A stretch of DNA of 64,000 nucleotides, taken from the NCBI GenBank assembly GCA_009914755.4, contig CP086569.2, positions 11,392,001 to 11,456,000 on the forward strand, written 5' to 3'. The first letter of the stretch is position 1; each line of letters starts with the position of its first letter. A program made the position numbers. The DNA comes from the human T2T-CHM13v2.0 reference genome, Homo sapiens. Positions 43,801 through 44,697 of this stretch are shown in pieces.

Positions 43801-44697
43801 GCAATCCAGGAGGACTAGGCAGGTCACACAGTGAAGGAGGGAACCAGAAGCTTCACTTGCCAAATAGACACCAGGAAACCCAACTAATACAAACGCCCAG
43901 CTTAAGACTAGAGGCACACGCATTTCGTACTACTCCTCTGGGAATGGGGAACGTCTCCCGAGAACTGTGTGTTAGCACCGGGACAGATGGGCAAACTGAG
44001 CTACATGAGGGTTGGTAACCGGGTCTCTCAGCGGCAGGACAGGAGCGCGGCCTGCAGACTCCGGGCCCAGGGCCACCACCCTCGCCTACCCACTCCTGCG
44101 CCTCTGGAACCCGCTTCACTGCTGGGACCCCACGCCTGTCCTCCCAGCCCCCGCCAGGGTCCACGGCCCGCAAATGCACGTCAGGCCCCTCCTGCCCGCG
44201 ATGCGCTCACGCGTCTGCCCCCACAAATGGGGAACACTGGTCTGGCCCCCCAGGATCCCCCGAGGCCCACAGGTTCCTCTTCGCCCTCACACCTACCCAC
44301 AGGGACATAGAACCAAGCCCCAGGCCTGCTCAGCTACAGGACGGCCGCTGGGATCCGCACTTCCGGAGGAAAATGGCGAAGTGGGCGGGGCGGCGCATGC
44401 GCAGAGAGAAAAGCTGGTTCCCAAGGTCCTTCATGGTAACATCATTGGAAGGTGACACTACATTTCCTATGAGGCTCTGTGGTCCCCCGTTAGGAACGCA
44501 CGCCGGACATTCTGTTTTGCCCAGCAGTGAGTCCAGTTACCCGGAGACCCGGACTTGATGGATCAGGACTGGTCCCTACCCACGTGACACAGATGTGGCA
44601 TTCTGGTTCGTTATTAAATCCTGGTTTCACAGCCTGGGACATTGTGAAAATAATGGAGAAATTCCAATAGAAACCAATTGGTCTATGCTGTTAATGA

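What the first reader, a model, noticed from the sequence alone, without database searches (positions are those of the whole stretch)
43990..44450. Orphan CpG-island promoter with NRF1, YY1, ETS and GC-box motifs and no recognisable gene
CACTTCCGGAGGAAAATGGCGAAGTGGGCGGGGCGGCGCATGCGCAGAGAG packs an ETS/GABPA site, a YY1 core (AAnATGGCG), a GC box and a perfect NRF1 palindrome GCGCATGCGC within 50 bp. That is a textbook housekeeping or bidirectional promoter core. It sits in a CpG-dense stretch partly derived from MIR SINE sequence and is surrounded by repeats. A possible first exon ATGGCGAAGTGG…TTCATG|GTAAC reads MAKWAGRRMRREKSWFPRSFM, which I do not recognise. It may drive an unannotated lncRNA, a pseudogene transcript, or the 5' exon of a gene whose other exons lie outside the window.
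Basis: partly seen in the sequence, partly recalled or inferred. Interest (0 to 1): 0.55.

Follow-up and report, generated by a model that had tools for sequence, protein, structure and literature searches.

The report
Duplicated, decaying CpG-island promoter relic
The motif cluster is real and looks like a housekeeping-type promoter core, but it is one of at least 30 diverged copies in a primate segmental-duplication family, it shows no sign of selection, and whether it still fires could not be tested here, so it is an ordinary finding.

Summary
The quoted 52-bp string is present exactly at 44350-44401. ETS, YY1, GC-box and NRF1 sites lie within 44 bp. None of 20,000 dinucleotide shuffles of the island carried all four motifs.

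The element is not a unique orphan. Thirty related contigs, including one labelled human gut metagenome at 98.1% identity, are colinear with window 37.7-47.4 kb at 88-98% identity. They share the same Alu insertions. This is a segmental-duplication family, not a transposon. The window also carries an ANKRD20A-type exon 1, an SNX18 pseudogene fragment and the mir-1299 48-bp array.

Across copies the island evolves faster than its flanks. Its CpGs decay as fast as flank CpGs. The NRF1 site survives in 14 of 31 sequences and the GC box in 12 of 31. The family consensus has o/e 0.74 and the window 0.59. No coding, RNA-family or splice evidence was found.

Best reading: an inherited promoter module that is decaying. 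It may still be weakly active as a non-coding start site. Activity could not be tested with these tools.

The parts
43851..44550 (.). CpG-rich stretch, a weak CpG island: GC 0.61, 40 CpG, o/e 0.62
   Evidence: Sliding-window CpG statistics. It is the only such stretch in the window apart from 2351-3200.
44358..44366 (-). ETS/GABPA-type site. Reads CCGGAAGTG on the minus strand and CACTTCCGG on the plus strand.
   Evidence: one match in the window against 0.43 expected. Intact in 31 of 31 related sequences.
44370..44378 (+). YY1 core AAAATGGCG.
   Evidence: Intact in 27 of 31 sequences. Lost by a CpG-to-TpG change in the four most divergent copies.
44383..44390 (+). GC box / Sp1-type site GGGCGGGG
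   Evidence: Intact in only 12 of 31 sequences. Most copies read GGGCCGGG.
44393..44402 (.). Perfect NRF1 palindrome GCGCATGCGC
   Evidence: one match against 0.01 expected. Intact in 14 of 31 sequences. The breaks seen in the 25-sequence alignment are T-to-A in ten copies, C-to-A in L003 and L019, and two changes in L011.
44444..44448 (-). CCAAT pentamer on the minus strand (ATTGG on the plus strand), a possible NF-Y site
   Evidence: Read from the sequence. Present in 31 of 31 sequences. The surrounding block is no less variable than the flanks.
44457..44481 (+). Degenerate ZNF143/THAP11-type site. The window reads ACTACATTTCCTATGAGGCTCTGTG. 22 of the 31 sequences read ACTACAnTTCCCATGAGGCTnTGCG.
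   Evidence: The pattern ACTACA.TTCCCA..A.GC...GCG is intact in 22 of 31 sequences. It is broken in the window by two changes. The motif consensus was recalled from memory.
43990..44350 (-). CpG-rich, C-rich body of the island (G-rich when read on the minus strand). Candidate transcribed region for a minus-strand start near 44355.
   Evidence: GC 0.68, 22 CpG, GC skew -0.23 on the plus strand, binomial p = 4e-4. This is the fastest-evolving part across copies.
44373..44435 (+).
   Evidence: The reading frame is verified. There is no homologue beyond colinear genomic ORFs. The donor is weak. Judged not to be a coding exon.
43983..44019 (-). Short MIR-core-like segment
   Evidence: Local alignment score 37 against a shuffle mean of 24.8 and sd of 3.4. 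The consensus was recalled from memory, so support is weak.
44713..44993 (-). Alu element bounding the region on the right. Copies that read through this position share it.
   Evidence: Two sub-threshold Metazoa_SRP matches and the sequence itself. Colinear in L012, L013, L015, L019 and L022.
37700..47400 (.). Minimum extent of the duplicated segment that carries the island
   Evidence: Contigs L005 and L012 together span 37746-47357 colinearly. The true ends were not determined.

Best explanation
The element is a promoter module of the TATA-less, CpG-island, housekeeping type. From the minus-strand viewpoint the order of sites is:
- a ZNF143-like site at about -110;
- CCAAT at about -90;
- NRF1 at about -40;
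- a GC box at about -30;
- YY1 at about -15;
- an ETS site at the presumed start, near 44355.

The module was already present in the ancestor of a primate segmental-duplication family and has been copied along with at least 9.7 kb of surrounding DNA.

Shown here:
- The motif cluster is non-random.
- The segment is multi-copy and colinear between copies, including shared Alus.
- The family consensus island is richer in CpG than the window copy (o/e 0.74 against 0.59).
- The copies lose CpGs in the island as fast as in the flanks.
- Half or more of the copies have lost the NRF1 site or the GC box.

Inferred:
- The island was an unmethylated, working promoter at its source.
- In most present copies it is methylated in the germ line and is decaying without constraint.
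- The window copy and its two closest relatives are among the seven sequences that keep all four sites. The window copy also keeps slightly more island CpGs than flank CpGs.
- The window copy may therefore still start low-level, divergent, non-coding transcription, mainly on the minus strand into the G-rich CpG body. It does not start a protein-coding gene.
For: - The motif string and coordinates are verified.
- None of 20,000 island shuffles had all four motifs.
- An exact 25-mer scan found 20 metagenome contigs, and protein-led look-ups found 10 more. All are colinear with the window over 0.6-9.3 kb at 88-98% identity.
- One contig is labelled human gut metagenome and is 98.1% identical.
- Alus at about 39.5-39.8 kb, 44.7-45.0 kb and 46.9-47.2 kb are shared by copies that span them. 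This means DNA-level duplication, not retrotransposition.
- Divergence among the tight cluster is 0.4-2.8% in the flanks and 1.2-9% in the island.
- Variable non-CpG columns are 7% in the flank, 15% in the island body (p = 9e-5) and 21% in the motif core. The block that looked conserved, 44403-44470, is at 7%, the same as the flank.
- CpG retention is 0.76 in the island against 0.73 and 0.70 in the flanks.
- The consensus has o/e 0.74 and 40 CpG. The window has 0.59 and 29 CpG.
- Motif survival: ETS 31/31, YY1 27/31, NRF1 14/31, GC box 12/31.
- The window retains 32 of 46 island CpGs against 51 of 100 flank CpGs (p = 0.048), and 6 of 6 in the core.
- Minus-strand bias: GC skew is -0.23 on the plus strand over 43990-44350, and GC falls to 0.48 to the right of the core.
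- Context: ANKRD20A-type exon 1 at 2973-3176, with source names 'ankyrin repeat domain-containing protein 20A5' and 'C21orf81'. SNX18 pseudogene fragment at 7644-8399.
- A human 9p11.1 cluster ANKRD20A7P/SNX18P5/CYP4F60P/GXYLT1P5 is reported as transcribed and co-regulated (PMC12233309).
Against: - There is no direct evidence of transcription. No CAGE, RNA or chromatin data are reachable with these tools.
- All six Logan contigs recovered are unspliced and colinear with the genome.
- Related contigs come from metagenome or short-read assemblies. They may be chimeras of paralogues or may mix species. Per-copy motif counts and divergence figures are therefore approximate.
- CpG decay at the flank rate argues that most copies are methylated and silent. 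The window copy's better retention is only marginal (p = 0.048).
- YY1 is oriented for the plus strand, so the strand call is an inference.
- The source gene of the promoter was not identified.
Confidence: 0.6

Rival explanations
1. Inert fossil. The module is a dead copy of a promoter, methylated and never used in this copy. The intact motifs in the window are simply not yet mutated.
For: - CpGs in the island decay at the same rate as flank CpGs across the family.
- The island evolves faster than the flanks and no block is more conserved than background.
- The window has one of the lowest CpG counts of all copies, 29 against 40 in the consensus.
- Its ZNF143-like site is broken.
- No spliced contig was found.
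Against: - The window copy and its closest relatives L025 and L026 keep all four sites and all six core CpGs.
- Island CpG retention in the window is somewhat better than in the flanks (p = 0.048).
- Related 9p11.1 pseudogene clusters are reported as transcribed.
Confidence: 0.3
2. First exon of a protein-coding gene on the plus strand. Translation starts at the ATG inside the YY1 site and splices from about 44436 to exons outside the window.
For: - ATG 44373 has A at -3 and G at +4 and lies inside a YY1 site. That arrangement is known in real genes (general knowledge).
- A GT follows the 21st codon.
Against: - The peptide has no homologue except read-through ORFs on colinear genomic contigs.
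- The donor scores below 5 on the rough matrix.
- No Pfam domain occurs in any stop-free segment of at least 45 aa between 40974 and 45556.
- CpG content falls off immediately on the plus-strand side.
- In four copies the YY1 site, which contains this ATG, is broken.
Confidence: 0.03
3. An architectural or enhancer-type element, for example a YY1/ZNF143-bound looping anchor, rather than a transcription start site.
For: YY1 and ZNF143-type motifs lie within 110 bp of each other. Both factors are linked to promoter-enhancer contacts (general knowledge).
Against: - The ZNF143-like site is degenerate in the window.
- The ETS + NRF1 + GC box + CCAAT combination is typical of start sites.
- No constraint was detected.
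Confidence: 0.05
4. The regulatory region of a transposable element (LTR or SINE) that happens to be CpG-rich.
For: A short MIR-like stretch lies at the left edge. The element is multi-copy.
Against: - All 30 related contigs share the same flanks for kilobases, including the same Alu insertions.
- The motif core lies outside the MIR-like part.
- No retroviral or transposase domain was found.
- There is no second copy within the window.
Confidence: 0.02

Closest known systems
Housekeeping-type CpG-island core promoters with ETS/GABPA, YY1, Sp1, NRF1, NF-Y and ZNF143 sites (often bidirectional)
   Same: - The same set of motifs packed within about 125 bp.
- TATA-less and CpG-rich.
- G-rich skew downstream on one side.
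   Different: - CpG o/e is only 0.59-0.63.
- No gene is attached.
- No evolutionary constraint is detectable.
- CpGs decay at the background rate across copies.
Orphan CpG islands (intergenic or intragenic islands that act as unannotated promoters; Illingworth et al. 2010, from memory)
   Same: A CpG-rich, promoter-like stretch with no recognisable coding gene nearby.
   Different: - Orphan islands of that class are typically conserved and unmethylated.
- This one is multi-copy, poorly conserved and eroding.
Pericentromeric-type primate segmental duplications carrying ANKRD20A, SNX18P, CYP4F and GXYLT1 pseudogene fragments (for example human 9p11.1)
   Same: - The window has an ANKRD20A-type exon 1, an SNX18 pseudogene fragment and the mir-1299 repeat.
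- The island lies in a segment present in many diverged copies.
- Such clusters are reported as transcribed.
   Different: - The exact chromosomal location and species of the window were not established.
- No CYP4F or GXYLT1 coding homology was found in the window.

Membership tests
CpG island (Gardiner-Garden and Frommer) | Length at least 200 bp and G+C at least 0.50 | tested here: met
   461 bp at GC 0.657. 700 bp at GC 0.61.
CpG island (Gardiner-Garden and Frommer) | CpG observed/expected at least 0.60 | tested here: inconclusive
   0.594 on 43990-44450, 0.63 on 44020-44420 and 0.62 on 43851-44550. The result depends on the bounds chosen.
CpG island (Takai and Jones, stringent) | At least 500 bp, GC at least 0.55 and o/e at least 0.65 | tested here: not met
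   The best 500-700 bp stretch has o/e 0.62.
Housekeeping-type CpG promoter | Cluster of ETS, YY1, Sp1 and NRF1 sites beyond chance | tested here: met
   All four lie within 44 bp. None of 20,000 shuffles matched.
Housekeeping-type CpG promoter | Transcription initiation (capped 5' ends, H3K4me3, factor occupancy) | not testable with these tools
   No expression or chromatin data are available. The only proxy is that six Logan contigs are unspliced and colinear.
Housekeeping-type CpG promoter | Germ-line hypomethylation, seen as CpG retention above that of the flanks | tested here: not met
   Family retention is 0.76 in the island against 0.73 and 0.70 in the flanks. The window copy is marginal: 32/46 against 51/100, p = 0.048.
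Housekeeping-type CpG promoter | Sequence constraint on the core relative to neutral flanks | tested here: not met
   Variable non-CpG columns are 21% in the core and 7% in the downstream block, against 7% in the flanks. NRF1 is intact in 14/31 and the GC box in 12/31.
Segmental duplication | At least 1 kb of non-transposon sequence present in several copies at 90% identity or more, colinear, with shared internal repeats | tested here: met
   30 contigs, 0.6-9.3 kb, 88-98% identity, same Alus at the same places. That the copies sit in one genome is inferred from human-associated sample labels and from their number.
Protein-coding first exon | ORF with homologues or a domain, followed by a good, conserved splice donor | tested here: not met
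   No named or independent homologue. No Pfam hit. The donor scores below 5 on a rough matrix.
MIR SINE derivative | Significant alignment to the MIR consensus | tested here: inconclusive
   37 bp at 43983-44019, z of about 3.6, but one of 200 shuffles scored higher. The consensus was recalled from memory.
Known structured RNA gene (Rfam) or tRNA | Covariance-model or ARAGORN match in 43300-45100 | tested here: not met
   Only Alu/SRP-like sub-threshold matches, and no tRNA.

The most novel reading that the evidence does not exclude
This particular copy, with L025 and L026, is a still-active, lineage-specific promoter that was carried into a pericentromeric duplication. It now drives a new non-coding or chimeric transcript, for example one running antisense toward the SNX18P and ANKRD20A-like exon 1 region. 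That would be an instance of duplication seeding new transcription units. The source gene of the promoter is still unidentified.
Probability: 0.15. Interest if true: 0.35.

Novelty: new member of a known kind. Interest (0 to 1): 0.18.

Why it matters
- If this copy is active, it is one more example of a promoter spread by segmental duplication into pericentromeric-type DNA. Such promoters can create paralogue-specific non-coding or fusion transcripts. They also confuse short-read expression and methylation mapping.
- The family offers a natural series of about 30 copies in different stages of CpG and motif decay. That series could be used to relate motif loss to methylation state.
- If this copy is inert, the finding is simply an eroding relic of no special interest.

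Tried and rejected
- **PGM5 / PGM5-AS1 intronic promoter.** I recalled MIR1299 lying near PGM5P2. There are no PGM5 exons in the window (query recalled from memory).
- **Downstream ANKRD20A exons.** Only exon 1 is present.
- **CYP4F, GXYLT1 or RHOT1 pseudogene 5' end.** No tblastn hits (queries recalled from memory).
- **Exact-product look-ups.** The 147-aa ORF, the exon-1 peptide and P0006 are not on record.
- **Pfam.** Packed stop-free segments gave nothing.
- **Rfam and tRNA.** Scans at gathering and E-value thresholds, and an ARAGORN scan, found no RNA gene in the island.
- **Literature.** Searches for 'chAB4', 'MIR1299 + ANKRD20A' and for 20-22-mers of the core gave nothing useful.
- **Splice junctions in Logan contigs.** All contigs are colinear with the genome.
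- **Apparent conservation of 44403-44470.** It looked conserved in the first 5-sequence alignment. With 25 sequences it is only as conserved as the flanks, so I dropped the constraint claim.
- **Transposon origin.** Rejected because the copies share flanks and Alus.

Full report
**1. Observation**

The window is primate genomic DNA with many Alus and L1 fragments. The quoted string lies at 44350-44401 on the plus strand. The motif positions are:
- ACTTCCGG at 44359-44366;
- AAAATGGCG at 44370-44378;
- GGGCGGGG at 44383-44390;
- GCGCATGCGC at 44393-44402.

Each motif is found once or twice in the 64 kb. Expected counts are 0.01 to 0.68 per window. In 20,000 dinucleotide-preserving shuffles of the 700-bp CpG-rich stretch, no shuffle carried all four motifs and one carried three. 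The cluster is real.

CpG content is borderline:

| Interval | GC | CpG | o/e |
|---|---|---|---|
| 43990-44450 | 0.657 | 29 | 0.594 |
| 44020-44420 | 0.686 | 29 | 0.63 |
| 43851-44550 | 0.61 | 40 | 0.62 |

Two further promoter-type motifs lie just to the right:
- A CCAAT pentamer on the minus strand at 44444-44448.
- A ZNF143/THAP11-like site at 44457-44481. It is intact in most related copies and carries two changes in the window.

The MIR claim rests on about 37 bp at the left edge, with weak statistics and a consensus recalled from memory. An Alu bounds the region at 44713-44993.

**2. Surroundings**

- The only other CpG island, 2351-3200, contains an ANKRD20A-family first exon at 2973-3176, ending ...KQHR|gtag. 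The best database hits are 78-91% identical. Sources name some of them 'putative ankyrin repeat domain-containing protein 20A5' and 'C21orf81'.
- No later ANKRD20A exons follow (the query was recalled from memory).
- An SNX18 pseudogene fragment lies at 7644-8399.
- A 48-bp tandem array of about 90 units at 11179-15512 holds two Rfam mir-1299 matches.
- This combination is typical of pericentromeric duplication mosaics. A human 9p11.1 cluster ANKRD20A7P/SNX18P5/CYP4F60P/GXYLT1P5 is described as co-expressed under one eQTL (PMC12233309).

**3. The element is multi-copy**

- The segment 43601-44700 is unique within the window.
- Protein-led look-ups with ORFs that cross the island returned ten contigs.
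- An exact 25-mer scan of metagenome contigs returned twenty more.
- All thirty are colinear with the window over 0.6-9.3 kb. Together they span 37.7-47.4 kb at 88-98% identity.
- The closest contig, L025, is labelled human gut metagenome. It is 98.1% identical over 2,106 bp.
- Copies that read through the Alus at about 39.5-39.8, 44.7-45.0 and 46.9-47.2 kb carry them at the same positions. The copies therefore arose by DNA-level duplication after those insertions, not by transposition.
- ORF clusters from this segment have 355 and 63 member sequences. Many contig names carry coverage values of about 4-17x. Both fit a high copy number in the host genome.

Caveat: these are short-read assemblies. 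They may be chimeras of paralogues or may include other primates. The mosaic sharing of variant blocks fits either gene conversion or chimeric assembly.

**4. Evolutionary behaviour**

Divergence:
- In the flank 40700-43800, the eighteen 'tight' copies differ by 0.4-2.8% from each other. They differ by 4.0-5.6% from the window.
- In the island, 43850-44600, copies differ by 1.2-9%.

Fraction of non-CpG columns that vary:

| Region | Variable columns |
|---|---|
| Flank 41800-43800 | 7% |
| Island body 43990-44340 | 15% (p = 9e-5 against flank) |
| Motif core 44341-44402 | 21% |
| Block 44403-44470 | 7% |

The block 44403-44470 looked strikingly conserved among five sequences. With 25 sequences it is at the flank rate.

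CpG loss and motif survival:
- Ancestral CpG sites are retained in 0.76 of cells in the island, against 0.73 and 0.70 in the flanks.
- The family consensus island has 40 CpG and o/e 0.74. The window has 29 CpG and o/e 0.59.
- Motif survival across 31 sequences is ETS 31, CCAAT 31, YY1 27, ZNF143-like 22, NRF1 14 and GC box 12.
- The more divergent copies keep the GC box, and L002 keeps all four sites. The full set is therefore most likely ancestral and is being lost.
- The window retains 32 of 46 island CpGs against 51 of 100 flank CpGs (p = 0.048). It retains all six core CpGs.

Inference: the island was once protected from methylation, as a working promoter would be. It is now eroding without detectable selection in most copies. 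The window copy is among the better-preserved in motifs but not in CpG count.

**5. What it could drive**

- No Pfam domain occurs in any stop-free segment of at least 45 aa between 40974 and 45556.
- No Rfam family or tRNA lies in 43300-45100, apart from the Alu.
- The donor ATG|GTAACA scores below 5 on a rough matrix. Better plus-strand sites are 44451 AAG|GTGACA (6.6) and 44526. Minus-strand sites at 44297 and 44293 (about 6.2-6.4) exist in only five copies. 7.7% of all GT sites in the window reach a score of 5.
- All six Logan contigs are unspliced.

A coding first exon is therefore very unlikely.

**6. Direction**

- Read on the minus strand, the sites run ZNF143-like, CCAAT, NRF1, GC box, YY1, ETS. 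This places the ETS site at a start near 44355.
- The CpG-rich body, 43990-44350 with GC 0.68 and 22 CpG, lies downstream on that strand. It is G-rich in that sense: skew -0.23 on the plus strand, p = 4e-4.
- To the right of the core, GC falls to 0.48.
- From general knowledge, CpG islands extend downstream of the start and show positive GC skew in the direction of transcription. On that basis the minus strand is the more likely main direction.
- YY1 is oriented for the plus strand, and divergent initiation is common at such promoters.

**7. Verdict**

The motif observation is correct. The 'orphan island' reading needs revision. This is a promoter module inherited by a segmental-duplication family, and across the family it is decaying. 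In this copy it may still support weak, divergent, non-coding initiation, or it may be silent. These tools cannot distinguish the two. It is an ordinary feature of duplicated primate DNA, so interest is low.

Noticed in passing
window 2351-3200; exon at 2973-3176 (+): A second, stronger CpG island (850 bp, GC 0.67, o/e 0.67). It contains an ANKRD20A-family first exon, MKLFGFGSCRGQRAHGS...KQHR followed by gtag. The best database matches are 78-91% identical, including proteins named ANKRD20A5-like and C21orf81. No later ANKRD20A exons occur in the following 61 kb, so this is a truncated paralogue or pseudogene.
   Followed up: partly
window 11179-15512; Rfam hits at 13421-13503 (-) and 14234-14316 (-): A 48-bp tandem array of about 90 units at 80% match. 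Two units pass the Rfam gathering score for mir-1299. The miRNA family appears to be a by-product of this satellite-like repeat.
   Followed up: partly
window 7644-8399 (+): SNX18 pseudogene fragment corresponding to about aa 357-614, with frameshifts. It was found by tblastn with a sequence recalled from memory.
   Followed up: partly
window 5565-7630: Three or more tandem copies of a unit of about 640-820 bp at about 84% identity, lying just upstream of and overlapping the SNX18-like fragment.
   Followed up: no
window 34292-34799 (+) and 50995-51501 (-): An inverted pair of about 510-bp segments at 72% identity, 16 kb apart, bracketing the finding. Both lie in GC-rich patches. This is probably an old interspersed repeat family, but it was not identified.
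   Followed up: no
window 39160-39403 and 41545-41709; loci L005 and L012: A 35-bp minisatellite and a 42-bp minisatellite lie inside the duplicated segment. The 35-bp array is longer in L005 than in the window, so its copy number varies between paralogues.
   Followed up: no
L020 4072-6401 and L023 4168-4725, against window ~40600: Two related contigs lose homology to the window at the same point, about 40,590-40,640, and continue with sequence not present in the window. This could be an insertion or a duplication breakpoint specific to some copies.
   Followed up: no
window 43960-44560 across L001-L024: Variant blocks in the island are shared in mosaic fashion between otherwise different copies. 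One example is the T..T..C..G haplotype at 44464-44500, seen in the window, L011, L017, L018, L021 and L024. This could be gene conversion between paralogues or chimeric metagenome assembly, and the two cannot be told apart here.
   Followed up: partly
window 48195-50916 (+) and 52896-57000 (-): L1 ORF2-derived ORFs (reverse-transcriptase and endonuclease-like translations) lie in opposite orientations. These are ordinary L1 fragments.
   Followed up: no
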